Source: a virus (Duplodnaviria > Heunggongvirae > Uroviricota > Caudoviricetes). Taken from it: a DNA stretch of 64,000 bases. Under the pieces are notes generated by a model. The model was not told the origin of the DNA. It worked only from the letters and a program-made list of their open reading frames with translations, and searched no databases. This document shows positions 3,594 through 64,000 of the stretch, one piece after another; position 1 is the first letter of the stretch, and each line of letters opens with the position of its first letter. The position numbers and the translations under genes were made by a program. The DNA lies in the IMG/VR virus record IMGVR_UViG_3300025659_000002, positions 1 through 64,000 of that record. One strand, 5' to 3'.

Positions 3594-3602
3594 ATAAATT
3601 AG

Positions 3603-3674
3603 AGCCTAGGGAAGGAGTTGAACCTCCATTTCTCTTAGCGGACTAAGAGCGTCTTACCATTAGACGACCACGGC
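3603..3674 (-). tRNA. tRNA-like element with 8-nt (or self-pairing) anticodon loop, anticodon region AGTCCGCT
   Basis: GCCGTGG-TC-GTCTAATGGTAAGAC-G-CTCTT-AGTCCGCT-AAGAG-AAAT-GGAGG-TTCAACT-CCTTC-CCTAGGC-T. The anticodon arm is an 18-nt perfect palindrome (7-bp stem plus 4-nt loop, or 5-bp stem plus 8-nt loop). Two acceptor-stem mismatches. Confidence 0.35.
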
Positions 3675-33014: not shown

Positions 33015-34114
33015 AATACGCTTGTAAGATGGCACAGAGTGCACGGGCGTAAGGCCAATTTTTCAGGTGGCTTTCCTGGTATTCTTTTTATGGAAGATGA
33101 GAGTGGCTGAGGGGTAAACTCTTCTTCCGAGGGATGCAACTCCCTTTGCGAGACTTATTAATCCCCGCACCACCTACGTTAAGTAGGAAGCCCTATCTTA
33201 AATTCTTTTCCAAATTGAAGGCTCTAGCCTTGCAACTCCTTCGGATAGACACCCAACGTTTTTATTACGTCTTTGGCCCAGTTTTATGAAGTTTGTACTT
33301 TTCCTGAGAATACAGTTAGTACGGTATATCTTTAAAGGGATCATTTCAATTCCCCTCGTTTCCACGCAGACTTACGTCGTCGTAATACACCAATCACAGC
33401 TCCAGGTATGGAGCCAGGTCTTTCCACTTACATTAACTCTACAATTTCACGACTATCTTAGCTGCCGCCAAGCTTAACCGCTTCCTTATAAATACTGCTG
33501 CAACCCTTGCGAGGCGCAGAGCTCGACGTTATACAGGCCGATATTAGTGATCTTTTATTATAAGCAGCCAGGAATCTAATTGCTTTCATTATAAATGACG
33601 AGAATCGAACTCGTGATCTACGGATTAATATTCCGTTGCTCTACCAACTGAGCTACATTATGGTTTTTCTGTGATTGGGAGGACGCGTTCCCGGTTGTGG
33701 TTACGTAGTTTTCAGCCACATAATGCCACTCGCCCTCGTAAGTCATTAGCCATGACAGCCTCCGATCCTTCATCATAGTAGTTGTCTCTTCTTGACTTAG
33801 AAGCCAATGAAGGCCTCAATATCTTGATCCCGACAAACTATATAATTGATAACCCGCTTGACAGACAGGATATCTTGCGATTACTATACAGACATTTCTG
33901 CCTACCCCTCAGGGGATACGTATCTCGACCTTCACGCCTCGCAGTTAGCCTGGAGTGTTGGACTATTTTTTACAAGATAAATAGAAGTTCGCAGTGTATA
34001 AATGTTTGCACTCCCGAAGGAGAACAACGCAATGCCAGGTATAATTTCACAGACCCGACTGCTTTTAGTCCCATTGCTGGGGTTATCTTTAACTGGATGT
34101 CATACCACCCAGGT
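33015..34114 (-). ncRNA. GC-enriched ORF-poor island, candidate large structured ncRNA with embedded tRNA-like element
   Basis: About 1.1 kb at roughly 45% GC against about 33% background, with no convincing ORF. Bounded by promoter-like motifs at 34146 (oriented toward it) and 32983. Confidence 0.35.
33590..33662 (-). tRNA. degenerate tRNA-like element (anticodon loop ATATTAA; acceptor stem does not pair)
   Basis: CATAATG-TA-GCTCAGTTGGTAGAGC-A-ACGGA-ATATTAA-TCCGT-AGATC-ACGAG-TTCGATT-CTCGT-CATTTAT. Canonical D-, anticodon- and T-arms but unpaired acceptor arms (both sides contain ATAATG as a direct repeat). Confidence 0.35.
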
Positions 34115-34155
34115 GCTAATTAAGGCTAAGCCTTGATTGCGAAATTCTTATACCA

Positions 34156-34190
34156 GAAAATATTGTTTTTTAAAAGACATTGGGTTATAT
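34156..34190 (+). promoter_or_regulatory. sigma70-like promoter candidate (TTGTTT-17-TATATT)
   Basis: ttgttt(tttaaaagacattgggt)tatatt ends 10 nt before the ATG at 34197. Confidence 0.3.
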
Positions 34191-34196
34191 TCAAGT

Positions 34197-35696
34197 ATGG
34201 AAAGAAATTATGAAGTATTTAGAGCTAGGGTAGTTTCAGTAGAGAGTCCTGATGTAAACGCCCTAGATAAAAAAGACATATATATTCAGGCAATAGATGA
34301 GACAGATCCTGAGAAGACGTATTTGGCGTTACCTCCGATATTTATACCAACTTCTGCATTTGGGTCGGGAGTAGTATCAGTGCCTCCTGAAAATCAGGAG
34401 TGTTTGGTGGCCTTGGACAAATGAAATAATGTTGCACAGATTCTTACTTATATCCCCTCAGGACTATCTTCGGCCTTCGGCGGTTTATCTGCAGAAGCTG
34501 TACCAGAGGGGGGAGTGTTATTAAAAATAGGTGGAAAGAACAAAACTAACTTCCTAATGGCTCCAGATGGATTCTTTAGTTGGTTTTCTAACGCCTTCGC
34601 TGAAATAACTTTGGATGGAGCTTATAAGAAACTAAATATTACAACTAAACGATATGAAAGACGAAGCGCAACTAATTTTGTTAGAGACTCATATCATCCT
34701 AAGAAATCTGCAGGAATAGATAAAGGAGCTACATCACATTTAGAAGTATATTCAAAGTTTGATGATACTACTGGGTATCTTGACCATATCTCAGAAAACA
34801 CTGAGACTCACCGCAGTATTCCTTTCAAGCACCAATTCACAGATCAAACTATTATAAAGTCTGGATACATACCTCATGTTAAGAATTTAAAAGGCACGCC
34901 TTATTCCCATTTGTATCAATTAGAGACTAGACAAGCTACTGGAGGTTCTAAACAGAAGAATACCTATACTAAGTTACATCTAGGGTATCAAGGGGCTACA
35001 GATCTATTTGATATAGGAGAAGAACACCCGGCAGGTTCTTTATTTCATTGGGTATTTAAACGAGCAGTAACAAATAATAATAGCTCAATGATAAATAGAT
35101 TTGGGAAATTAGAGTCCGGGAGTTTAGCGGGAGAGTTATATAGACATCAAATATATGATGGAACTTTTGATGCTACAGCCTGGAAAGCTGGGCAAGGTTA
35201 CGATTATACTTTTATCAACACCGGAATTAAACAGCAATATGTAAGTAGTTTTGGCAAGTTAAACACGGGTAGAATATGAGGAAGACACATCCATCAGCTA
35301 GAAACCACAACTAATGGTAAAATGTATACTAAAGAGTTTGGCGGTACAGATATATTAAAGACAACAGTGCAGTCCGGGGATGTTGCAACTCCAGAGTTGA
35401 AATTGACAAAGACGTTAAATAATGAGGCATACACTGTTAAACTGAATCTAGGAGATACTACTCTTACTATAACTTTGGATAGCAGCGGAATAACTCTTGA
35501 CGTGCCTGAAGGTAAAAATGTGTATCTCGGAGGCTCAGAGGGTCAGACGTTAGTTACTAAAGAGTTTGTTACAGAATTATACGCGGGACATACACATGGT
35601 ACAGGAGTGGGACCTTCGTCACCTCCAATAATTCAGCCAAGTATTTATGATCCTTTGGATGAGAATATTTATACTGTGAAGACTTTATCAGAATAA
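34197..35696 (+). CDS. baseplate central spike / VgrG-gp5-like protein (OB-fold N-terminus, beta-helix with HTH motif), containing in-frame TGA
   Basis: ORFs 34137..34424, 34515..35279 and 35322..35696 share one frame and are separated only by TGA at 34422 and 35277. Reading through gives ALDKWNNVAQ and TGRIWGRHIH. N-terminal FRARVVSV...GSGVVSVPPENQECLVAL resembles the gp5/VgrG OB fold; C-terminal YAGHTHGTGVGP is HxH-like. Ends TAA. Confidence 0.55.
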
Positions 35697-36238
35697 TGTT
35701 AAGTGAAACTAATTTAAAGACTGAGCTAATCGCGGAGTTTTATAAGTATTATTATTTAGAAGGCGATAACCGAATAGCTTATACAGTTGATGAAAAAAGC
35801 ATCAGGTTAGGGGAGATTATTAGTGAATATATGAGCGAGGCTGTAGTAGGAGTTACTGGAATCACTACAAACTTTTCTAATGTAGAAATAACTATACCCG
35901 AATGACCAGAGGTTGATGTATCTTTAACTTTTATATCTAACCCATTGGCGGAGATTTCAGGGTCTAGAGGTATATCTGATGAAGATTTACTAGCGGAAGC
36001 TACTACATTAGTACCTACAGCAGTAGGATTTATAACTTATACTCCTGTAGGACCAATAATACCCTTTATAACACCCACATGAGGTAGCAGCAATGCAGAG
36101 TTAATAGCCCAAACTGTGGAGATCTTTTGTGAAGACTTGGCAACTAGTATCCATAACTATGTAAAACAAATAAAGTTTCAAATGACAGGAACGTCGGCAA
36201 GTGGTGTAGTACTTACAGTAGTATGGACTATAACGTAG
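35696..36238 (+). CDS. hypothetical structural-module protein with two in-frame TGA
   Basis: ORF 35696..35905 continues in frame through TGA at 35903 and TGA at about 36080 to TAG at 36236-36238. Readthrough context ITIPEWPEVD, TPTWGSS. ATAATG overlap with the upstream gene. Confidence 0.45.
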
Positions 36239-36245
36239 ATAATAC

Positions 36246-36274
36246 TTGACTAAAAACCTAAGCTTAGTTATATT
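36246..36274 (+). promoter_or_regulatory. sigma70-like promoter candidate (TTGACT-17-TATATT)
   Basis: ttgact + 17 nt + tatatt, 32 nt upstream of the RBS/ATG at 36307. Confidence 0.4.
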
Positions 36275-36306
36275 GAAATGTTAGAAGAAACAAAGTTAGT
36301 GATTAA

Positions 36307-38496
36307 TTGGAGATAATAATGGACAACTTATTTATAAAGAACTCTTTTACTAAAACAGCGTCATACTCAGTGGATATGGACGCAACGAAGTGGGTTAGAA
36401 ATGTAATTACGTATTTTTACGAACAATATCCGTTCGCTCAAAATCAGCCTGCAGTGGTTCAGTGGAAGAAAAAAGATAGTACAAAGGGATATGCGGTAGG
36501 GGTATTAAAGATATCCGGGGCATCCATACCAGTAGTAATCAAAGATTGGAAATTATCTCCTTTAGACATAGTTATGGCAGGTGGAAGAACTTTACCACTT
36601 AATACTGAGGTGTTAAGAACTATGTTAACTTCGCCAGGAGCATTTGTAGGAGTAGCGTCGTCTCCTCCTAAATCAGGACTGGACATGTTCTCACAATTAC
36701 AGTATTCTCCTGATGGGAGTATAAACAATTCAGCTAGCGAGTCTAGTTCACAAGAACGACCTGCTAAAATAGCTTCATTTATTGACAAAATTGAGCATAT
36801 AGACAAAAAAGCCGTTGTTGAAATACTAAATACTGTTAAAAACAACCCAGAAATCCATAATAACTTCAAAAAGACCGGAAGATTAGACGTTTTAGACAAA
36901 CTAGCGTCAAAAACAGAGAGTCAAGAAGAAATCGTGGATTCTTTCATTAGGGACCTTGATATAGATAGACAGTTAGTTATTAAAGACTCTTTAGGTAATC
37001 ACACAGTTAAACAAGCTAATTCTAACATAGATTTTGTATGAGAACTCCCTATTAAGGCTTCAGAAGCTGAAGAATTTGAGATATTAACTGCTTCAAGTTT
37101 CCAAGAAAAGACTGCTGAGTCTGTAGATGCTAATTGCTACAAGATTTGGGACACTGATAGACACCTTATGGTAACATCGGACAAAGATTATCATGATTTT
37201 AGTAGAAATGATGTGAAAACGGCTGAAGCATTTACTTTAGAAGAAGACCAACCACAAGTTGGTGATCTTGGCGTTTGAAAATTTGGAGAATCAGTCTCTG
37301 AACCTTTTGAAGTACTAGGAATGGACAAAGTATCGTCATATTCTTCAAATCTTTATAAACTAGACGGAGGTCCAGGGTATCTTAGCATCAGTAAGAATAA
37401 AGATTGGGTTATTTTAGAGAAATTAGGACAAAAGTCTTCAGAAAATGTAGAAATAGACGGAGATTTTCCTAAAATAGGAGATTTCGGAGCGTGAGTTATG
37501 CCTGATGGCAGTGCCACTAAGCCTTTTGAGATTAGAGAACTATTACAAGACTTAGAAGCTTCTAGCAATAAACAAGTACAAGTAGCAGGTTGGGATGGAT
37601 TGCAGAAGATTGCGTATTACCTGACTGAAATGCCTGTTAAGAGTCTGATGGACTCAGAGAATGGCGGAAAGTTACTACCTAAAGAAGCAAAGTTTGTTAA
37701 ATTAGGCAAAGAATTAAGAAAAGTTTCTGAAGTTAGCGAGGATAATCAAGATACCCCATTAAAAGTTACAGGATGGGCCGGAAGAGAAAAAGTATCTTAT
37801 TACATCGACAACACAACTACTTCTGAAGCAAAATATGTAGAAAAAGAATCTAGTTGGTATTTATCTAAGGACGTGAGCTTCATTAAGCTAGGATCATACT
37901 TACAAAATGAAATACCACATACTGTTAAAGTAAATAAACACACAGTTGGAAAAGACTCTGTAGGCCTTTATTACTTAAAAGGTGCAGAGTTCTCTAAATA
38001 TGCAGAAAACAGCCATGAATTACGTGATTTAAGCCTCTCAGAGGCAGAATGATCATTAATTCATTGTGGAGCAACCAAGACTGATATAAATAAGGCGGCA
38101 ATGTTGCTGAAAGGCACTGAAATGCTAATTGCTTGTCCAATTGAAGCTCCTATACCTCCAAAAGTGTTTATTGATAAAATAGCAGAAACTTATGAAGATA
38201 GTACTAATGACATAGAGATGTTAAAAGTAGACTTAGTAAAAGAGGCTGCGGTTTTATCTGATAAAAGCACTGTAGATGCTGTATTGTCTCTTGGAGCTAT
38301 CAACAAACAGAATATTATAGAATACATAGCTCTATTACCTCAATATGAGATGATTATGAGTGAATTAGCCAAAATGCTGCTTATGACTAGGTTAGGTATG
38401 AGGCATCTTCCGGAGGAAGCCGTAAAGAACGCCATGGATTCAGTAACTAAAATAGTACTGTTGCTTATGGGCGTTAACAAACTGTACTCTAATTAG
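36307..38496 (+). CDS. large structural-module protein (about 729 aa) with four in-frame TGA
   Basis: ORFs 36307..37041, 37498..38052 and 38101..38496 are in one frame. In-frame TGAs at about 37039, 37276, 37492 and 38050 in the contexts NIDFVWELP, GDLGVWKFGE, GDFGAWVMPDG and SEAEWSLIH. Ends TAG at 38494. Strong RBS aattggagataataATG. Confidence 0.55.
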
Positions 38497-38504
38497 GAGA
38501 TACT

Positions 38505-38921
38505 ATGAGATCTTTAGGGGATATGGCGCGACAGATGACTTCATTGCAGAAATTAGTGGTTAGCCAGAATGATCAAGAAGGCGTAGACGAGGTTGTATAT
38601 GAAAAGGCGTACGAGTCTACTGCAGGGGCAGATTCTATAGGGCGAAGTATTTATAACGAAGAAGATGGATCAGTAATGATATTATCTTTGCCAGAAGGAA
38701 CAGAGTTTCCACCACATACTCACGAAAATCCAATAGTAGAGTATGGAATCATATTAAAGGGGAGTATAAGAATTACACAAGAAGGAGTAGATGACGTAAT
38801 CTATTCTTATCAAGACTGCGTAATTCTTAAAGATGAGGTTATGCATTCTGGAGTAGCTTTAGAAGATACGAAGATAATCGCAATAACAATCCCACAAGAG
38901 TTAGGATACCCTGGAGCTTAG
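38505..38921 (+). CDS. cupin-fold protein
   Basis: EFPPHTHENPIVEYGIILKG...VMHSG His/Glu pattern of cupins; RBS aggagatactATG; ends TAG. Confidence 0.45.
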   Translation: MRSLGDMARQMTSLQKLVVSQNDQEGVDEVVYEKAYESTAGADSIGRSIYNEEDGSVMILSLPEGTEFPPHTHENPIVEYGIILKGSIRITQEGVDDVIYSYQDCVILKDEVMHSGVALEDTKIIAITIPQELGYPGA

Positions 38922-38950
38922 TCTCCACATTATAAAATAGGAATATTAGA

Positions 38951-39418
38951 ATGACTGATAAAAAAGGACCAATGAGCTGAGAAGAGTTTTTCGTTAAAAT
39001 CGGAGACAAAGTGGATGAGCATGAAAAGACGTTAGTGACTTTTACTAACGGTAAGTTTAAATCATTAGAAGATAATGTAGATACTTTAAAAGAGACAGTT
39101 GGGGGCATTAAGAATGATATGTCTGAGATTAAAAGAAGACTTCTAGATCCTGAAACCGGCGTAATTCACAAAATGAATGAAGCTACGGTATATGTAGGCA
39201 AATTACAGAAAGAAGAAACGTTAGACCAGATCAAATTAGTCAAAAAAGCTAATACGAACGTTTCACGGTTATTCTGGCTAGTTATGACATTTGTTATAGG
39301 CTCTTTCTTATCTCAGGTCATACCAGACACTTGGTATCCATATTCAGATAAATATACACCAAAAATAGAAAATGTTCAGCCTGAACCAGTGATAATACCT
39401 GATACTATCGCTAATTAA
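38951..39418 (+). CDS. coiled-coil protein with C-terminal TM helix, in-frame TGA near N-terminus
   Basis: ORF track 39011..39418 (GTG start). The frame stays open upstream to ATG 38951/38972 through TGA at 38978-80 (MSWEEFFVKIGD). Hydrophobic LFWLVMTFVIGSFL segment. Confidence 0.4.
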
Positions 39419-39540
39419 TATTTGTATAATACCTAGAATCTAACTATATTAAAGAAAGGGGGTAATTCCAATGATAATACACTGGGGTCTCTCTATAAAA
39501 GACAATTTGAAGAATAAAGTATTAAATCAGTATAAAAATA

Positions 39541-39873
39541 ATGCACAATTCGCCTCTCTCGATTACAAAAGCAGCTGCAATACAGTTAGAAACTAAGAAA
39601 ATTAGCTTAAATCACCCAAAATCCCACATATTAAACATAAAGTTGGCGCCAAATTACGAAACTGAGATGGCACACTTCGATTTTACATATAAAGACATAA
39701 AAGATATTAAAAATATAGTGTATGATGATGACTATGCACACACCATGGATTCGGAAACTGCTATGTATCTTCTTGGCAGTACATTAGATTATAAGGATAA
39801 TAGACTTATATTCGATCATATGGAGCTAGATGGCTTAAATAACTTTAATAATATTGATAATAATAGCAATTAA
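39541..39873 (+). CDS. hypothetical protein (110 aa)
   Basis: ORF track. Confidence 0.4.
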   Translation: MHNSPLSITKAAAIQLETKKISLNHPKSHILNIKLAPNYETEMAHFDFTYKDIKDIKNIVYDDDYAHTMDSETAMYLLGSTLDYKDNRLIFDHMELDGLNNFNNIDNNSN

Positions 39874-57238: not shown

Positions 57239-57260
57239 ATGTGCTCTCCATTGTTAGGTG

Positions 57261-57332
57261 CAGGGACGGCAGGACTCGAACCCGCATTGCCGGTTTTGGA
57301 GACCGGAGCTCTACCAATTGAACTACGCCCCT
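57261..57332 (-). tRNA. tRNA-Trp (anticodon CCA)
   Basis: AGGGGCG-TA-GTTCAATTGGTAGAGC-T-CCGGT-CTCCAAA-ACCGG-CAAT-GCGGG-TTCGAGT-CCTGC-CGTCCCT-G; all stems pair; U11-G24 in the D stem. Confidence 0.7.
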
Positions 57333-58026: not shown

Positions 58027-58371
58027 ATGGATAAAGCACAACACGTGTTTATGAAATACGCTGAGCGTAATAAACGTAAACCTAATCGTCTATTATTAGA
58101 TTTAGCCCCAGGAGCATTATCTGGGACTGTTACCAGTTTATTGCTTCACCCCTTAGATACCCTACAAGTTCGTCGTCAGACGGCTCCTCCCTCTCAAAAT
58201 GTTGACTTTAATAAACCTCCTAAACTTACGAAACCAATAGGTAAATTAAAGGCTTTTAAATCTTTGTATAAAGGTTTAGGATTAAAATTGTTACGTAACA
58301 TTCCAACGTTAGCTATAGGATTTGGTACCTACGGAGTTACTAAAGACTATCTAGACAAAAAATATAAATAG
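58027..58371 (+). CDS. MDKA-motif protein 1 (114 aa)
   Basis: Starts MDKAQHVFMKYAE (ORF track 57985..58371 trimmed to the ATG with RBS aagga). Confidence 0.5.
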   Translation: MDKAQHVFMKYAERNKRKPNRLLLDLAPGALSGTVTSLLLHPLDTLQVRRQTAPPSQNVDFNKPPKLTKPIGKLKAFKSLYKGLGLKLLRNIPTLAIGFGTYGVTKDYLDKKYK

Positions 58372-58379
58372 GAGTTAAA

Positions 58380-60419
58380 ATGGATATTCAATCACCATTA
58401 GGAACTGTAGTAGGGTTAGGAGCCTCAGCAGTCCCGTCGATTCCACAACCAAAAAGGCGTACTAAATTTAGAAAACTTATGAACGCCTCTTTAGTAGGAG
58501 CATCAAGTGCTATTTCTACGTTGGTGCCTGGCGCGCCCTTACAAAGTGCAGCAGCGGCGTCATTAGCTCCGGAAGGGAGAAAGGTGCAAGCAGCTCAAGC
58601 AGCCCTTACTGGGTCTATGTTAGGGTCTTTACCTGGGGCGGCACTGTTTACTAGACAATTTTTTGCAAGTAATAAAAAAAACATAGAAGATTTAAAAGGA
58701 AAAACATTCAACGACATAAGCGATGTTACAAAGGCCTATTTAAAAAATCAAAAGCAGTTAGCTAAAAATTTTATAAAACAACCAGATTTACCATCAAAAG
58801 CTTTTCAATTATTTACTAATAAAATAAAAGGCACCTTAACAAAATTTAAAACATTCAAAGTACCAGCAGCCGCGTTATTAGCAGGAAGTGCTATAGGTTC
58901 TGGCATAGGATACCATAGGAGTACAAATATGAAGAAACAAGGAGAGTTTTCTAAAGCAGAACTATTATTTAATAAAACTGCAGGACCGACTGCTGCAAGC
59001 GTGGCTGAGACAGGGCAGAAGGTATTAAAAAGAACTAAAGAGTTATTTTCTGGCAATAAGATGAAGTCTAAGATAGATGCAGCTAAAAAGAGCGGGAAAG
59101 AGCTTGACGCTAACGAGGCTGGTAAAGAAATTGTAAAAGTATACGCTACACGAGGTGCGGCGGGTACAGGCGCAGCAGCTGTATTAGCAGACGCAGTTAT
59201 AGATAAAAAAGCGGAATATGTATTTTTAAAAGTTGCAATTAATGCGAAGGCATTAAAATTAAAGGCCATAACAATTGCCCAGGAAGCGAAAGCAACCTCA
59301 GATGCGGTTGTTAAAGGAACTTCAAAAAGAGTAGTGAAAAATAAAAGTCTGGCACCCGTAGATGCCCGATGGACCTCTTCTGGAGGTAAAGGAACCGCTG
59401 CGAATACTTCGAAATCTTCGAAAGCGTCAGCAGCTTCAACTACTTCGAAATCTACAAAATCTACAAAGGCTACAACTTCAACTGCTCCGGCAAAAACTGA
59501 GCAACCTGCGGCAAAGAAAGGAATAAGTTTAAATGCTAAACTTCTAGGGTTTGGCGCAGGAACAACTCTCGCAGGAATAGGGATAGGGCGCGCTAGTAAA
59601 ACTGGATCGGTATCTGCTAGATATTTGGAACTAGTAAAAGGTAGCCGTCTAAAGGGCCTTAAACAAAGTAAAGCAGATTATATAAATAAATTAAAAACTG
59701 TGACCTCTAAACTTCATAAGGATCATCCTAAGTATACGGAACTATTAAAAAATGTAGAAAAAGAGATTAAAATCGAAACAGCTAAAGTAGTAGGAACAGT
59801 AGTAGGAACTCCTACAGCAGCAGCTACCTTAGTAGGCGGAGCTATGTCTTTAAATAAAAAAGCAGAAGCTGTAATGAGTAAATTAGGTAAAAAGTATCCT
59901 TATATAGATTTAGCACATGATCTAGAGTTGTCTAGAATAAGAGAAGAGCTACAAGCGCGAGCGCATGCTAGAGCCTTACAGGAAAGTCCTTCTGGCAAAT
60001 GGAATAAAGAAAACGCTCCAGAGTATTCGGCGAGCTCAAAAAAGGAAAGAAGTAAACAATATAGGACTGCCACAATACCTAAAACAACGGGGGTCGGAGC
60101 AGCATTAGGAGCTTGATCAGGTACAAAATGGTTAGGTAAAAATCCTCCTAGTAATTATTGAGCTGTAAACCCAGAACCGCTTTCAGTATTAAGAAAAATG
60201 AAAGGTTTAGGAAAAAATGTTGCAGTAGGAGCTGTAGCGGGTGCAGCGTTTGGAACAATGATAGCAGCTGCCGTAGGGAGCGATAAAGCTCAGCGAAAAT
60301 ATTTGAAAGTTAAAGGATTAAGAGGCGGTCAAGATCTTACCAGTAAACAGCTAAAAAAATATGTACCAGAGGCTTTAACAACGTCTAGATTAATTAATGA
60401 TATAGACTACGCATCTTAA
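58380..60419 (+). CDS. Ala/Lys/Gly-rich large protein (about 679 aa) with two in-frame TGA; candidate virion internal protein
   Basis: ORFs 58380..60116 and 60198..60419 are in one frame, joined through TGA at 60117 and TGA at 60159 (GAALGAWSGTKWLGKNPPSNYWAVNPEP). RBS taggagttaaaATG. Confidence 0.55.
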
Positions 60420-60436
60420 AGAGTGGGAAATAATTA

Positions 60437-60598
60437 AATGAAAAAACAAGCAGTAAAAGACTTAGTTACCGAAGTAAAACATCTGACTCACATGATTGAG
60501 GGTAAAAAGGGTTTTAATGTAATGAGAGGTCTCTACGGACCCAACGCAATTGCAAATTTTGCTAAATGAAAAAAAAGCAAATCCTGGAAAGAAATATA
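60437..60598 (+). CDS. small ORF (uncertain)
   Basis: ATG with an aattaaATG context; length and possible internal TGA are uncertain from my hand reading. Confidence 0.2.
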
Positions 60599-60652
60599 AA
60601 GATTATGCTCAGTTATACAAAAAAGCAGAATACATTTTCTCAAAAATAGTCA

Positions 60653-61195
60653 ATGCCTAAATTCTTTCCAGTACCAAAATTTAAGATAGATCGAGGATTC
60701 GATCCAACCCTCATTCAACAAAAAGCTGGATGAGACAATATCTTTTTGCAGGGACGAAAGAACAAAGCTAAATATAGAGCCTTAATAGCTAATAAATCTA
60801 TACCATTTATGAGTAGAGAAGTGTTTACTAGGAAACCCCTCCCTAACGTTACTAGGGAAGGTTATAATGGGATCTTAACCTCTTTTAAGAAGGTAGCTCA
60901 GGTATTTGAGAAGTATGCTAAATATACCTCTTGTAAAATCAAGTTTAAGAAACTTCAAAAACATAAAAAACCTCTAACTCCAGAAGAGCGCGCGTTAGTG
61001 ATGAAAAGCAAAGCAGTTTGGAATTTTCATTTTGGTAGAGATGGCAAACGCCAAGCAACTCCGGCTGTATGGAAATCGGTACAACCTGATGGTAGAACTA
61101 TATATGTAACTAATACTCATCGAGCCTTTAATACAGCTCCTACAGTAAAAGGCGCAATTAACAGATATCACACATTTATAAAAGGAACAGCATAA
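60653..61195 (+). CDS. basic protein with in-frame TGA (extends ORF 60746..61195 upstream)
   Basis: ORF track starts at TTG 60746. The same frame is open back to ATG at about 60653 through TGA at about 60731 (QQKAGWDNIFLQGRK). Confidence 0.4.
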
Positions 61196-61917
61196 TGAAT
61201 AAAGCACAATACATATTTGAAAAATGAGCTTCAACTGCGATGATAAGAGCGGTTAAGGCTAGAAAGATCTCTGCAGAAGCAGCGGGAAAAGCTACTCAAA
61301 CTTTAGGACTTAAGTCTAGATATTTAAAAGATTTGGGCCAGGGAGTTGAAGGGTTGGCACAGTTAAGGACTTCCGCAAAACACCAACTTCAAGTTGCTAA
61401 ACTCTATGACCCTAAGGGAGGGCTTTCGAGTAAAGAGGTATTAAAAGAAAAAGTTCGTACTTTTAAAACAATGTCAGGCAAAGGCAATTTTGCCAAGTAT
61501 TATGGAAAAGATCCTAAACGACCCATCACTTTCCACGAGTATAGTCCAGGAACTGCCGGAATTGGGAGCTCTATAAAACAAACTCTTCTAACAAAGGCAC
61601 AAGCTACACTGAGAGGTGTACCTATGGCCGACGTAGTTAGAAACCCAGGAAACATTCAGGGTGGAAAAATAATTGACTTCCTTCCCGCAGGTAGAAGGGG
61701 GCGCAAAGCTCTACAAACAACCACTGTCGGGAAACAGACTGAGGGATTTAAAAAAGCGGTTAAGAGTGAAGTGTGGAAGGCTCTGTCTTTAAAGAAAAAA
61801 CCAGCTGCAGCTATAGAAGGTATTAAGTACCAAGCTATAGATTTTGGAAGTAAGTTATTAGAGAGCGGTATGACCCGAAATTCTAATATACCTAAAGCAA
61901 TATACGGTAAGAAATAA
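61195..61917 (+). CDS. MDKA-motif protein 2 (MNKAQYIFEKW..., basic, 240 aa) with in-frame TGA
   Basis: ATG at 61195 (TAATG overlap). TGA at 61225 is in frame (MNKAQYIFEK-W-ASTAMIRAV); the ORF track begins only at the internal Met at 61240. Confidence 0.5.
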
Positions 61918-61918
61918 A

Positions 61919-63319
61919 ATGGATAAAGCCCTACACGTATTTAATAAGTATGCTGCCGATCAGCCCCACCAAGCTAGAGTATTAAAGAAGCTTGAGAAGA
62001 CTGATCAAATGTTGTTATATCACGGCTTAGGTTCTGGTAAAACCTATACGGCATTACGTGCAGGTGAAAAGTTTAAGAAACCTGTAACAGTTATAGGCCC
62101 TGCAGCTTTAAAACATAATTTTCCTAAAGAGAGGCTTAAGCATAAAATAAAAGGGGAAGGTTCTTATTATTCTTATAATAAACCTCCAACAAAAAATGTT
62201 TCAAAAGACGTAGTTGTATTCGATGAAGCCCACAGAATGGGTAGAACAGAGTCCCAACGTTCACACTATCCAGATAAAATAAAGGGTAAGAAAACCCTGC
62301 TTCTATCAGGAACTCCTATTAGAAATGAACCTGCAGAATTAATACCGCTTTTACGGGGTTTAAATATTAATATAGGTAGAGATAAAAAAAGATTTAACCA
62401 GGCGTTTATTCAAGAGACTAAACAAAAACCTGGATTTTTTGCACGAGTATTTAAGGGTATTAAGCCTGGAACGGTAAAACGTGGGAAAAATTTAGGAGTT
62501 CTTAGAAAAGCTCTACGAGGCAAAGTAGATTATCATGCCCCAACTAAAGATAAAAATTATCCTTCAGTTATAAATGAGCGTATAGAAACTACAATGTCTA
62601 AAAAACAACAAGCAGCTTATAAAATGGTTATGAAAGAAGATCCTGATTTAAAGTATAAAATTAGGCATGGAATAGCTCCTTCTAAAACAGAATCATCTCG
62701 AATGAATGCATTCTTAGGAGCGGCACGCCAAGTATCTAATCGTCCGGGCAAATACAATTTAAGCGCTACAGAGGCCGATGCTCCTAAACTAAATAGAGCG
62801 ATGTCAGAAATTTCTAAGAGGCATAAAGCTAATAAAAAATATCGTGGAGTAACTTACTCTACATACTTAGGTCACGGAGTGGACCCAATGGCCAAAAGAC
62901 TTAAGAGAACTAAGATACCTTTTGGCACCTTTACAGGAAGACAGACTGACCTAGAAAAAGCTGATGTAGTAAAGAAATATAATTCTGGCAAGATTAAACA
63001 CTTACTTATATCTGGAGCGGGAGCAGAAGGGCTTGATTTAAAAGGAACAAGGCTTCTTCAAATATTAGAGCCTCATTGGAATGAACCTACTCTAAAACAA
63101 GTAAAAGGTAGAGTAAATAGATTCAAGTCTCATGAACATTTAAAAAAACAAAATCGAAATATAACGATTCAAACATATATTAATAAGCCACGTAAAACTA
63201 GATTCTTACGTAGACAACATGCGGGAACTGATGAGTATCTAGAATTGCTATCAAAAAATAAACAAAATCTTGTAAATGATTTTACTAAAGTATTAAAGGA
63301 AGTAGGAAGTGATGGATAA
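61919..63319 (+). CDS. SNF2/DEAD-like superfamily-2 helicase with MDKA N-terminal motif
   Basis: MDKALHVFNKYAAD; Walker A GLGSGKT, DEAH box VVFDEAHR, LLSGTPIRN (SNF2 motif III-like); 466 aa. Confidence 0.55.
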   Translation: MDKALHVFNKYAADQPHQARVLKKLEKTDQMLLYHGLGSGKTYTALRAGEKFKKPVTVIGPAALKHNFPKERLKHKIKGEGSYYSYNKPPTKNVSKDVVVFDEAHRMGRTESQRSHYPDKIKGKKTLLLSGTPIRNEPAELIPLLRGLNINIGRDKKRFNQAFIQETKQKPGFFARVFKGIKPGTVKRGKNLGVLRKALRGKVDYHAPTKDKNYPSVINERIETTMSKKQQAAYKMVMKEDPDLKYKIRHGIAPSKTESSRMNAFLGAARQVSNRPGKYNLSATEADAPKLNRAMSEISKRHKANKKYRGVTYSTYLGHGVDPMAKRLKRTKIPFGTFTGRQTDLEKADVVKKYNSGKIKHLLISGAGAEGLDLKGTRLLQILEPHWNEPTLKQVKGRVNRFKSHEHLKKQNRNITIQTYINKPRKTRFLRRQHAGTDEYLELLSKNKQNLVNDFTKVLKEVGSDG

Positions 63320-63764
63320 AGCTGCGCAAGTATATAATAAATATTTTTATAAGTTTGGAATGGCGAGAGTACCCTCGTTACAAAGTTGGGATGACGTTAT
63401 TAGCCAGGTAAAGAGCCATACCCGCCTTAAACCAAAATTGGACCGCGTAACACGAATGAAGTCAGTTACGTCTAATAGGAATGAAGGAAAAGATATAATA
63501 GAGAAAGTATTACCAGAAATAGATATAGTCAAAACTAAAATGAATATTGGAGATAAAGGGGTGGTACAAACTAAAAACCATCAACTTATATTTCACAGAG
63601 CTAATCCGGATTGGGGAGAAAGCGGTGATATGCATATGTCAACATATTATACAAAAGACATGCCCATTCAAAAAAGGTTTGGTGAAAAACTAATTAATTT
63701 TACTGATGCTAGTTTAAAAAAGAAAATAAAAGACAAATATCCAGAATTAGAGATGAATTGGTAA
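63312..63764 (+). CDS. MDKA-motif protein 4 (150 aa)
   Basis: MDKAAQVYNKYFYK; ATG 63312 overlaps the end of the helicase gene. Confidence 0.5.
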   Translation: MDKAAQVYNKYFYKFGMARVPSLQSWDDVISQVKSHTRLKPKLDRVTRMKSVTSNRNEGKDIIEKVLPEIDIVKTKMNIGDKGVVQTKNHQLIFHRANPDWGESGDMHMSTYYTKDMPIQKRFGEKLINFTDASLKKKIKDKYPELEMNW

Positions 63765-63767
63765 ACT

Positions 63768-64000
63768 AGTGCAAAATAAACCCTCTATATCAGACCACTA
63801 TCAATATGGTAAACGTCTTCTTAGGCATAAGGCCTTTATGATTAGGCCCGGCAGGACTATAGGAGCCCCATACGGGACGCTTTTAGCTCATGACCTCTCT
63901 AAGTTCCGCCCAAGCGAGTGGAAGCCTTATGTAGCCTATTGGCAGGGCCCTAAAGGTATTACTGGTACGAAGGATCCAGAAGTAACTAGAAAATTTAGAG
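63768..64000 (+). CDS. partial ORF running off the window end
   Basis: Open frame from GTG 63768 (or ATG 63837) to the window edge; VQNKPSISDHYQYGKRLL...; not in the track. Confidence 0.25.

What the first reader, a model, noticed from the sequence alone, without database searches (positions are those of the whole stretch)
58027..63360. Shared N-terminal peptide M[DN]KA-x-[HQY]-[VI]-[FY]-x-KY on four consecutive proteins, including a SNF2-like helicase
58027 (MDKAQHVFMKYAE), 61195 (MNKAQYIFEKWAS), 61919 (MDKALHVFNKYAAD; SNF2/DEAH helicase) and 63312 (MDKAAQVYNKYFYK) are otherwise unrelated proteins that begin with the same roughly 12-residue peptide. A conserved leader on heterogeneous proteins in a late, recoded module is what capsid-targeting / prohead-protease-cleaved signals look like (compare T4 internal proteins), or a signal for packaging and ejection of cargo into the host. 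A helicase carrying such a signal would be an injected effector.
Basis: seen in the sequence. Interest (0 to 1): 0.75.

Follow-up and report, generated by a model that had tools for sequence, protein, structure and literature searches.

The report
Shared capsid-loading tag on phage proteins
An uncultured, roughly 210-kb phage puts the same 12-residue peptide on the front of at least eight unrelated late proteins, including a Snf2 motor and two kinase-like enzymes; this tag most likely loads them into the capsid for delivery into the host, much as the T4 capsid-targeting sequence does, but the sequence is different and it is widespread in environmental phages.

Summary
M[DN]KAxx[VI][FY]xK[YW] starts four ORFs (58027, 61195, 61919, 63312), against 0 hits in 200 simulated windows. 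Synonymous sites differ between copies, so the constraint is on the protein. A contig identical to the window shows four more tagged ORFs just past its end, plus degenerate internal and C-terminal copies.

Relatives found through the helicase carry lineage-specific versions of the tag on many neighbouring proteins (MDKAxxIFEKIA, MSKFFKxA, MNELMEKIAEDAFIDELEKIS, MNxFPLLEKYA). All share the core Φ-x-K-Φ-A. Within a genome, tags on unrelated proteins are more alike than tags on orthologous helicases from different genomes.

The core motif is about 10- to 18-fold enriched in scaffold-like proteins and the maturation protease, and it also occurs at the capsid-protein N-terminus. This holds for close relatives and for cultured phages Arash and Vibrio D181. 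It is not enriched in the tail, downstream and early (minus-strand) ORFs tested, or in Arash's polymerase and helicase.

AlphaFold leaves helicase residues 1-10 as a detached helix. In Arash virions the helicase homologue is as abundant as the virion RNA polymerase.

Best reading: a capsid-targeting propeptide ending in a prohead-core or protease motif. It is a new variant of a known kind. Cleavage and injection are inferred, not shown.

The parts
58027..58065 (+). Tag copy 1, MDKAQHVFMKYAE
58027..58371 (+). 114-aa tagged protein made of one mitochondrial-carrier (MCF) repeat with two predicted membrane helices
   Evidence: Pfam PF00153 E 1.2e-14, residues 22-112; PDB carriers 9wv2 and 1okc; identical protein P0121 seen on more than 50 contigs
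58380..60419 (+). 679-aa Gly/Ala-rich protein read through TGA at 60114 and 60159. It has no N-terminal tag but four degenerate internal copies (nt 58947 FSKAELLFNKTA, 59202 DKKAEYVFLKVA, 59853 NKKAEAVMSKLG, 60279 SDKAQRKYLKV), each just after a Gly/Ala-rich hydrophobic stretch. It looks like several small tagged units fused in frame.
   Evidence: partial homology to L001 8309 ORF
60616..60660 (+). C-terminal-type copy YKKAEYIFSKIVNA* in a small frame-0 ORF that has no ATG start
60653..61195 (+). 180-aa ORF (TGA at 60731) with an internal copy FKKVAQVFEKYA at nt 60884. In relative L001 the homologous protein ends right after this motif, so here a downstream unit is fused.
61195..61233 (+). Tag copy 2, MNKAQYIFEK-W(TGA 61225)-AS. 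The tag continues across the TGA, which argues that TGA is a sense codon here.
61195..61917 (+). 240-aa tagged minimal protein-kinase-like protein (GxGxEG, VAK, HEY, DxxxxN, IDF)
   Evidence: 74 homologues; invariant G33 G35 E37 K54 D131 N138 D146; profile hits Chk1 and MEK kinases at E about 1e-3; AF2 pLDDT 88.8; all top-50 Foldseek hits are kinase domains
61919..61957 (+). Tag copy 3, MDKALHVFNKYAA
   Evidence: AF2 gives an isolated helix at residues 2-10 with pLDDT below 50
61919..63319 (+). 466-aa tagged Swi2/Snf2 ATPase
   Evidence: Pfam SNF2-rel_dom and Helicase_C; AF2 pLDDT 92.8; Foldseek hits SNF2h, ISW1, CSB and vaccinia virion transcription ATPases; homologue Arash gp217 is abundant in virions
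63312..63350 (+). Tag copy 4, MDKAAQVYNKYFY (the most divergent: F in place of A)
63312..63764 (+). 150-aa tagged orphan protein
   Evidence: only itself found among 5.8 billion proteins; no Pfam or PHROG family passes threshold
63769..64000 (+). Start (GTG) of an ORF that runs off the window. On the identical contig L049 it continues as DUF5662, then an internal MQDKVTLIFKKYAE tag, then a domain with HELGH.
36319..38496 (+). 725-aa late recoded protein (4 TGA) with five copies of the core motif (residues 10, 192, 428, 558, 618). Probably another head-internal protein.
   Evidence: 5 observed against 0.73 in shuffles, 3/2000; coordinates

Best explanation
The roughly 12-residue peptide is a capsid-targeting propeptide. 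It is a short, moderately amphipathic helix (D-K-A-x-x-[IV]-F-x-K-Φ-A) attached by a flexible linker to otherwise unrelated late proteins. Its C-terminal half, Φ-x-K-Φ-A, is the short linear motif that this phage lineage uses throughout its head core: in scaffold-like proteins, in the C-terminal part of the maturation protease and at the N-arm of the major capsid protein. Proposed mechanism (inferred): during prohead assembly the tag docks the cargo onto the same partner that recognises the core motif, either the protease itself or the scaffold/shell interior. The cargo is then enclosed, and the protease probably cuts at or just after the Ala, releasing mature cargo and breaking up scaffold and fused multi-unit proteins. 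The packaged set (Snf2 ATPase, two kinase-like proteins, an HExxH protein, Gly/Ala-rich membrane-type proteins, a one-repeat mitochondrial-carrier-like protein) would then be ejected with the DNA. The Snf2 ATPase would work with a virion RNA polymerase, as in the cultured relative Arash. Shown: the shared tag, its protein-level constraint, its lineage-wide distribution and within-genome co-variation, the head-specific enrichment of its core, and its structural detachment. Inferred: docking, cleavage, packaging and ejection.
For: (1) There are four strict copies against 0 in 200 simulations, and synonymous sites vary. At least 8 N-terminal copies lie within 10 kb of the same genome. (2) The tag sits on unrelated folds. 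Cargo content differs between this genome and L001 although their helicases are 80% identical, and only the tag is shared. This parallels T-even internal proteins, which are diverse and share only a conserved CTS (PMC3012670). (3) Relatives carry lineage-specific tags on 4 to 11 neighbouring ORFs: L001, L002, L012, L013, L014, and further contigs. The same holds for the N-termini of 120 helicase homologues and 74 kinase-like homologues. (4) Identity at non-anchor tag positions is 0.51 within genomes (different proteins) against 0.23 between orthologous helicases, which suggests a common genome-specific partner. (5) Core motif enrichment: L018 head module 17 observed against 0.94 expected (0/2000 shuffles), including MCP residues 21-27; L035 21 against 2.18; Arash gp218-226 21 against 2.24; Vibrio D181 15 against 2.42. 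There is no enrichment in the other proteins tested: 0 in L018 downstream and Arash tail proteins, 1 against 1.43 in Arash RNAP plus helicase, 1 against 3.0 in window early (minus-strand) ORFs. (6) AF2 of the helicase gives pLDDT 92.8, but residues 1-10 score below 50 and form an isolated helix. K10 is at least 90% conserved across 49 homologues. (7) In relatives L002 and L012 the tagged genes lie directly after a fused β-β' RNA polymerase. In L001, L014 and L018 they lie next to terminase, protease, scaffold and MCP genes. (8) Arash virion mass spectrometry: helicase gp217 1148 spectra, against RNAP β' 1210 and MCP 1333 (PMC10585845).
Against: There are no virion proteomics or N-terminal sequences for any tag-bearing phage, so cleavage and its position are unproven. 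The Arash helicase that is found in virions has no tag, so packaging of this enzyme does not strictly need one. That preparation also listed 116 proteins, which suggests contamination. C-terminal copies (window 60616; L001 6326; L012 8700 ORF) make little sense as cleavage sites and point to docking rather than processing. The protease assignment rests on weak PHROG hits plus homology to a protein that depositors call 'capsid maturation protease'; there is no Pfam hit and no solved homologue. N-terminal enrichment of the core motif was not significant across 36 pooled loci, because internal copies in head proteins are so common. Amphipathicity of single tags is only moderate.
Confidence: 0.65

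Rival explanations
1. The tag is an uncleaved cargo-loading (docking) peptide. It binds the inner capsid, scaffold or portal and stays on the mature protein, as encapsulin cargo-loading peptides do. The repeated core motif in scaffold proteins would then be a binding motif rather than a cleavage motif.
For: The tag occurs at C-termini and internally as well as at N-termini. Tags co-vary within genomes. The tag is a detached helix.
Against: The motif is reiterated 5-8 times in acidic scaffold-like proteins and in the protease's own C-terminal region, and conservation stops sharply after the Ala. That is the pattern of prohead-protease substrates in T4 and SPN3US (PMC5694885). This reading is not exclusive of the best explanation: it differs only on cleavage.
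Confidence: 0.2
2. The motif is only a protease recognition site with no targeting role. The proteins enter the prohead by other interactions, and the N-terminal peptide is simply trimmed.
For: The Arash helicase is in virions without a tag. The core motif is short and common in head proteins.
Against: Conservation reaches 6-15 residues upstream of the core (DKAxx..., MNELMEKIAEDAFIDELEKIS) and co-varies within genomes. That is more than a 4-5-residue cleavage site needs. Attaching a removable peptide to many unrelated enzymes has no obvious purpose unless it does something before removal.
Confidence: 0.08
3. The tag has nothing to do with capsids. It could be a membrane-association, chaperone (DnaK/DnaJ) recognition, degradation or localisation tag acting in the infected cell.
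For: Several tagged proteins have Gly/Ala-rich membrane-like segments, and one is a membrane carrier repeat. A tagged J-domain protein exists in L001.
Against: The tag has no hydrophobic core (mean hydrophobicity about 0). It sits on soluble enzymes (Snf2, kinase-like). Its core is enriched specifically in scaffold, protease and MCP proteins. The genes lie in the head and packaging module.
Confidence: 0.05
4. The similarity reflects a nucleotide-level element at the start of late genes (a translation-initiation enhancer, recoding signal or late promoter), or a recent duplication with no function.
For: All copies are at the start of late, + strand, tightly packed genes. The sequence is A/T-rich.
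Against: Synonymous codons differ freely between copies in four genomes. Copies occur inside ORFs and at C-termini. Non-recoded relatives have the tag too. No DNA repeat is needed to explain it. Orthologues keep a tag while changing its sequence in step with genome-mates.
Confidence: 0.02

Closest known systems
T4 capsid targeting sequence (CTS) of internal proteins IPI/II/III and Alt, removed by prohead protease gp21
   Same: Both are short (10-20 residue) N-terminal peptides shared by otherwise unrelated, rapidly diversifying head-internal proteins. In both, the peptide ends in the protease's cleavage motif, which is also reiterated in scaffold/core proteins and in the MCP propeptide, and the cargo is ejected into the host (PMC5694885; PMC3012670).
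   Different: There is no sequence similarity (T4 CTS is MKTYQEFIAE, from memory). T4 gp21 cuts after Glu in L/I-x-E, whereas here the motif ends in K-Φ-A. The protease family is different and uncharacterised. The tag also occurs at C-termini and at junctions of fused units. The cargo is enzymes (Snf2, kinase-like, HExxH) rather than small anti-restriction proteins. The tag is spread over a very large uncultured clade, with lineage-specific variants.
Propeptides of ejection proteins in giant phages φKZ, 201φ2-1 and SPN3US (A/S/G-x-E motif; gp53/gp54 share an identical 15-residue N-terminus)
   Same: These are jumbo phages that package a multisubunit virion RNA polymerase and many ejection proteins. 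N-terminal propeptides are thought to act like a CTS, and the protease cleaves itself at its C-terminus.
   Different: Those propeptides are mostly longer than 100 residues and share only the 3-residue cleavage motif after Glu. Here there is a recognisable 12-22-residue consensus on many proteins and a different motif.
Encapsulin cargo-loading peptides
   Same: They are short terminal peptides on unrelated enzymes that dock to the interior of an HK97-fold shell. They can sit at either terminus, joined by a flexible linker.
   Different: They are not cleaved, there is no protease or scaffold, the consensus is different, and the shell is not a virus. This comparison is from general knowledge and was not tested here.
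Prp-cleaved N-terminal leader shared by ribosomal protein L27 and the capsid and scaffold proteins of Staphylococcus phage 80α (…LQFFA|S)
   Same: The same short N-terminal leader sits on unrelated proteins and is removed after an Ala preceded by aromatic or hydrophobic residues.
   Different: That cleavage is done by a host cysteine protease (Prp), on 2-3 structural proteins only, in Firmicutes. No Prp homologue was looked for here. From memory.
Poxvirus virion transcription machinery (RNA polymerase packaged with the Snf2-family ATPases VETF-s and NPH-I)
   Same: A multisubunit RNA polymerase and a Snf2-type ATPase are carried together in the virion for immediate early transcription. The vaccinia ATPases are among the structural matches of the helicase (7amv_W, 6rfl_Y). 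The Arash homologue is co-abundant with the virion polymerase.
   Different: It is a eukaryotic virus with no N-terminal loading tag. The similarity is functional only.

Membership tests
T4-type capsid targeting sequence (functional class) | Short N-terminal peptide shared by otherwise unrelated head-internal proteins of one phage | tested here: met
   At least 8 N-terminal copies on unrelated proteins
T4-type capsid targeting sequence (functional class) | Peptide ends in the prohead-protease cleavage motif that is reiterated in scaffold/core proteins, the protease itself and the MCP N-terminus | tested here: inconclusive
   The core Φ-x-K-Φ-A is strongly enriched in exactly those proteins in relatives, but cleavage at it has not been demonstrated
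T4-type capsid targeting sequence (functional class) | Sufficient to carry a foreign protein into the capsid; removed on maturation | not testable with these tools
   Needs genetics and virion mass spectrometry
T4 CTS / gp21 system (homology) | Sequence related to the T4 CTS and a cleavage motif L/I-x-E after Glu | tested here: not met
   Tags end in K-Φ-A and most have no L/I-x-E at the boundary. The protease is homologous to Arash gp222, phage G gp19 and Gordonia Stormageddon gp13, and there is no Pfam hit
φKZ/SPN3US propeptides | Cleavage after Glu in A/S/G-x-E; long propeptides | tested here: not met
   The tag is 12-22 residues and has a different motif
Sec/Tat signal peptide | Hydrophobic core of about 10 or more residues (Sec) or a twin-arginine motif, followed by an AxA site | tested here: not met
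   Mean hydrophobicity is about 0, the helix is charged and amphipathic, and there is no RR
Swi2/Snf2 ATPases (61919 ORF) | SNF2-related N-lobe plus Helicase_C lobe with the DEAH box | tested here: met
   Pfam E 4e-17 and 3e-10; confident model and Snf2 structural matches
Mitochondrial carrier family (58027 ORF) | Three tandem repeats of about 100 residues, each with P-x-[DE]-x-x-[KR]-x-[KR] | tested here: not met
   There is only ONE repeat (residues 22-112 match 5-95 of the 96-position Pfam model). The signature is P-L-D-T-L-Q-V-R (K replaced by Q). It is a homologue of the repeat, not a canonical carrier
Protein-kinase-like superfamily (61195 ORF) | Gly-rich loop, VAIK Lys, catalytic D…N loop, DFG Asp | tested here: met
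   All are invariant in 50 homologues and align to Chk1, and the fold matches are all kinases but weak (E about 2e-3). Pfam Pkinase passes in only 1 of 50 members, so membership is at superfamily level only

The most novel reading that the evidence does not exclude
The tag is a sequence-readable 'address label' used across a very large, mostly uncultured clade of large phages that encode a virion RNA polymerase. It would allow the injected proteome to be read straight from genomes. It shows these phages pre-load a fast-changing arsenal of enzymes (Snf2 motor, protein kinases, metalloprotease, J-domain protein, DNA-ligase neighbours) and membrane proteins. One of these is a free-standing single repeat of the mitochondrial carrier fold, which may trimerise in the host membrane. 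The core K-Φ-A|[S/A] would define the specificity of an uncharacterised prohead-protease family, close to the Ala|Ser specificity of herpesvirus assemblin.
Probability: 0.35. Interest if true: 0.8.

Novelty: new variant of a known kind. Interest (0 to 1): 0.62.

Why it matters
Outside T4-like phages there is almost no recognisable sequence rule for which proteins are loaded into a phage head and injected; ejection proteins are normally found only by virion mass spectrometry. If this tag is such a rule, three things follow:
- The packaged or injected proteome of hundreds of uncultured large phages, including stop-codon-recoded ones, could be predicted from sequence.
- A new set of pre-made host-takeover enzymes would be exposed (kinase-like proteins, a Snf2 ATPase that probably partners a virion RNA polymerase, a metalloprotease, a J-domain protein).
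- It would give a candidate specificity for an uncharacterised capsid-maturation protease family shared with cultured phages (Arash, Vibrio D181, Bacillus phage G), and a portable peptide for loading foreign proteins into capsids.

The single-repeat mitochondrial-carrier homologue is a separate curiosity. It bears on how that three-repeat family arose.

Tried and rejected
- blastn of the module against 50,697 phage records found nothing.
- PHROGs and Pfam gave nothing for most module proteins.
- A word-indexed homologue search found only self for the 114-aa and 150-aa proteins.
- A sequence search of the PDB with the protease found no match.
- A literature search for the peptide strings (ELEKIA and others) returned only irrelevant words. 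Searches on prohead protease and CTS returned only the T4, φKZ and SPN3US literature, and none of the papers they returned describes this motif.
- The 725-aa late protein (36319) showed no homology to Arash gp218 or other fetched head proteins.
- I tested whether the core motif is enriched at N-termini across 36 pooled loci. It is not: 74 hits in residues 1-20 against 76 in residues 26-45, because head proteins have many internal copies. The N-terminal claim therefore rests on the full-length tag, not on the core alone.
- Amphipathic moment of single tags is only moderately above shuffles.
- I considered and rejected a DNA or RNA-level element (synonymous variation), simple paralogy (unrelated folds), and a Sec/Tat signal (no hydrophobic core).
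- The phmmer alignment of the tag to the 'DKYKQIFL' segment of the bovine ADP/ATP carrier is treated as coincidence, because the same tag sits on non-carrier proteins.
- Arash coverage values (MCP 86.6%, helicase 100%) are too crude to reveal processing.

Full report
**1. What is in the window**

The window is 37% GC and carries 12 tRNA genes. Most genes lie on the minus strand, and most of the minus-strand ORFs of 100 aa or more have no in-frame TGA. Two + strand blocks (34002-39873 and 58027 to the end) read through TGA. In those late ORFs there are 14 in-frame TGA against 24 TGG. In a close relative's terminase, the TGA positions that can be aligned fall on W, W, W, F, F of a non-recoded homologue. 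TGA read as Trp in late genes is therefore well supported.

Each follows an AGGA-type ribosome-binding site.

The strict pattern M[DN]KAxx[VI][FY]xK[YW] occurs four times in the six-frame translation and nowhere else. It gave 0 hits in 200 order-2 Markov simulations, and a looser pattern gives 9 hits against 0.39 expected. Codons differ at synonymous positions between copies, so selection acts on the peptide and not on the DNA or RNA. The copy at 61195 runs across a TGA at the aromatic position (EK-TGA-AS), which is itself evidence that TGA is a sense codon here.

**2. More copies than four, and not only at N-termini**

Protein P0121, identical to the 114-aa ORF, is seen on more than 50 public contigs; the longest is 211,738 bp. 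Contig L049 is 100% identical to window 58027-64000 and extends about 4.3 kb further. It shows:
- tagged ORFs at window-equivalent 65052 (MDKAQYIFEKLGK), 65786 (MKDKATYIFEKIAK, a paralogue of the 61195 ORF), 66507 (…MKDKATIVFEKLAG) and 67127 (MDKATIVFEKLAIS);
- an in-frame internal copy (MQDKVTLIFKKYAE) in the ORF that begins at 63769.

Inside the window there are also degenerate copies:
- within the 679-aa Gly/Ala-rich ORF (nt 58947, 59202, 59853, 60279), each right after a Gly/Ala-rich hydrophobic stretch;
- inside the 180-aa ORF (nt 60884);
- at the C-terminus of a small ORF (nt 60616).

Where the 180-aa ORF has its internal copy, the homologous protein of relative L001 simply ends. The internal copies therefore look like junctions of fused units.

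**3. What the tagged proteins are**

- *58027:* one repeat of the mitochondrial carrier fold (Pfam E 1.2e-14; PDB carriers).
- *61195:* a minimal kinase-like protein. It has 74 homologues, and the Gly-loop, VAK Lys, D…N and DF Asp residues are invariant. A profile hits Chk1 and MEK kinases at E about 1e-3. The AF2 model has pLDDT 88.8, and all of its top-50 structural matches are kinase domains, though weak.
- *61919:* a Swi2/Snf2 ATPase.
- *63312:* an orphan.
- *The ORF from 63769:* DUF5662, plus a tag-preceded domain with HELGH.

In relative L001 the tagged set is different although the helicase is 80% identical. It includes a J-domain protein (Pfam DnaJ E 1.6e-8), and a DNA ligase sits untagged among the tagged genes. 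Only the tag is common.

**4. The tag is a clade-wide feature with lineage-specific forms**

Loci found through the helicase show these forms:
- L001: MDKAxx[IV]FEK[IL]A, at least 10 copies.
- L002: M[SG]KFFKxA on four consecutive ORFs, right after a 2019-aa fused RNA polymerase β-β' with NADFDGD.
- L012: MNELMEKIAEDAFIDELEKIS on five ORFs, plus two C-terminal copies, after a 2637-aa RNA polymerase fusion.
- L013: MFFxxFxxExxKLA.
- L014: M..FPLLEK[VYI]A on at least 11 ORFs around the terminase.

Further contigs carry window-type tags. Most of the 120 helicase homologues, and many of the 74 kinase-like homologues, start with such a peptide. K10 is at least 90% conserved in a 49-sequence helicase alignment.

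All variants share Φ-x-K-Φ-A, and conservation stops right after the Ala. At the non-anchor positions, tags of different proteins in one genome are 51% identical. Tags of orthologous helicases from different genomes are 23% identical, and all between-genome pairs 17%. That pattern of concerted change is what a shared, genome-specific binding partner predicts.

**5. Link to the head core**

In L018, which is the head module of the L001 contig, the core motif occurs as follows:
- 7 times in a 320-aa scaffold-like protein;
- 6 times in the 458-aa protease homologue;
- repeatedly in three small acidic proteins (EKVAE, EKTAE);
- once at residues 21-27 of the MCP.

With the stricter pattern used for the shuffle test, that module gives 17 observed against 0.94 in within-protein shuffles, 0/2000. 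The downstream non-head proteins have 0. Window early (minus-strand) ORFs have 1 against 3.0 expected.

The same holds elsewhere:
- L035, from the L002 genome: 21 against 2.18;
- the cultured Salmonella phage Arash, gp218-226: 21 against 2.24;
- Vibrio phage D181: 15 against 2.42.

Arash's RNA polymerase plus helicase (1 against 1.43) and its tail proteins (0) are not enriched.

The protease homologue is related to Arash gp222, Bacillus phage G gp19 and a Gordonia phage protein annotated as capsid maturation protease. The MCP matches phage G gp27, PDB 6WKK. Phage G head-module proteins also begin with L-x-K-[TV]-A-type peptides.

This arrangement parallels T4, where the CTS of internal proteins ends in the gp21 cleavage motif that is reiterated in scaffold, protease and MCP propeptides (PMC5694885). 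[quoted passage not shown]

From memory, herpesvirus assemblin sites are (V/L/I)-x-A|S, which resembles Φ-x-K-Φ-A|[S/A]. That is a lead, not a test.

**6. Structure and experiment**

AF2 models the helicase at pLDDT 92.8. Residues 1-10 score below 50 and form an isolated helix (2-10) followed by a linker, so the tag is an appendage and not part of the fold.

Structural neighbours are Snf2 remodellers. They include the vaccinia virion transcription ATPases.

In Arash virion mass spectrometry the helicase homologue gp217 gave 38 peptides and 1148 spectra. That is comparable with RNA polymerase β' (1210), gp218 (1149) and the MCP (1333); the polymerase β subunit was the most abundant protein (PMC10585845). 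This supports co-packaging of a Snf2 ATPase with a virion RNA polymerase in this clade. Two caveats apply: Arash gp217 has no tag, and the preparation listed 116 proteins.

**7. Conclusion**

The most likely explanation (about 0.65) is a capsid-targeting propeptide whose C-terminal half is the lineage's head-core or protease motif.

The main uncertainty is whether it is cleaved. C-terminal copies argue for docking. Reiteration in scaffold and protease, and the sharp boundary after Ala, argue for cleavage. Both may be true.

Rivals unrelated to capsids (membrane or chaperone tag, nucleotide-level element, paralogy) are poorly supported.

It is a new variant of a known kind. The principle is that of the T4 CTS, but the sequence, the protease family, the positional flexibility, the enzyme cargo and the breadth across uncultured phages are new to my knowledge, and none of the papers returned by my literature searches describes it.

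Noticed in passing
window 58027-58371 (and L001 5443-5742): A free-standing single repeat of the mitochondrial carrier fold (114 aa; Pfam Mito_carr E 1e-14; signature P-L-D-T-L-Q-V-R) is the first gene of the tagged module in both this phage and its relative. Canonical carriers have three such repeats, so a one-repeat, possibly trimerising, phage version is unusual.
   Followed up: partly
window 61195-61917 and window-equivalent 65786 (L049 17760-18488): Two paralogous tagged proteins are minimal protein-kinase-like proteins with all catalytic motifs conserved across 50 homologues. Pfam Pkinase matches only 1 of the 50 members, at E 0.00082.
   Followed up: yes
window 3602-3674 (minus strand): ARAGORN reports a tRNA with an undetermined two-base anticodon. 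By eye the anticodon arm can be drawn as a 5-bp stem with an 8-nt loop (AGUCCGCU) or as a 6-nt loop. No tRNA with a UCA anticodon, which could read the recoded TGA, lies in the window; a normal tRNA-Trp(CCA) sits at 57260-57332 just upstream of the late module.
   Followed up: partly
window 60438-60660: The 43-codon ORF from 60438 reaches AAA-TGA followed by a run of A (8 A in all). The +1 frame then continues, without an ATG, to the C-terminal tag copy YKKAEYIFSKIVNA*. A frameshift or misassigned start may join the two.
   Followed up: no
window 63769-64000, continued on L049 15812-17026: This ORF combines DUF5662, an in-frame internal tag (MQDKVTLIFKKYAE) and a domain with an HELGH zinc-protease-type motif. 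L002 8783-9991 has a tagged protein with HEFGH.
   Followed up: partly
L002 2724-8783; L012 766-8679: Relatives encode RNA polymerase β and β' fused into one 2019- or 2637-aa polypeptide (NADFDGD present), directly upstream of the tagged genes. The L012 copy carries intein and LAGLIDADG domains. No such gene lies in the window.
   Followed up: partly
L001 15935-18610: The large terminase of the closest relative is 891 aa with 14 in-frame TGA and a long insertion between its ATPase motifs. This looks intein-like or like a homing endonuclease.
   Followed up: no
L001 6394-7713 and 8928-9995: An ATP-dependent DNA ligase (phrog_114, no tag) and a tagged J-domain protein (Pfam DnaJ) sit in the tagged module of the relative but have no counterpart in the window. 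The cargo set turns over quickly.
   Followed up: partly
window 58380-60419: The 679-aa protein is built of repeated units of the form [Gly/Ala-rich hydrophobic stretch]-[degenerate tag]. Many small tagged proteins in L014 end in similar Gly-zipper-like segments, which suggests membrane-active ejection proteins.
   Followed up: partly
L014 736-1887: A reverse transcriptase (RVT_1) gene lies a few kb upstream of the tagged head module in this relative.
   Followed up: no
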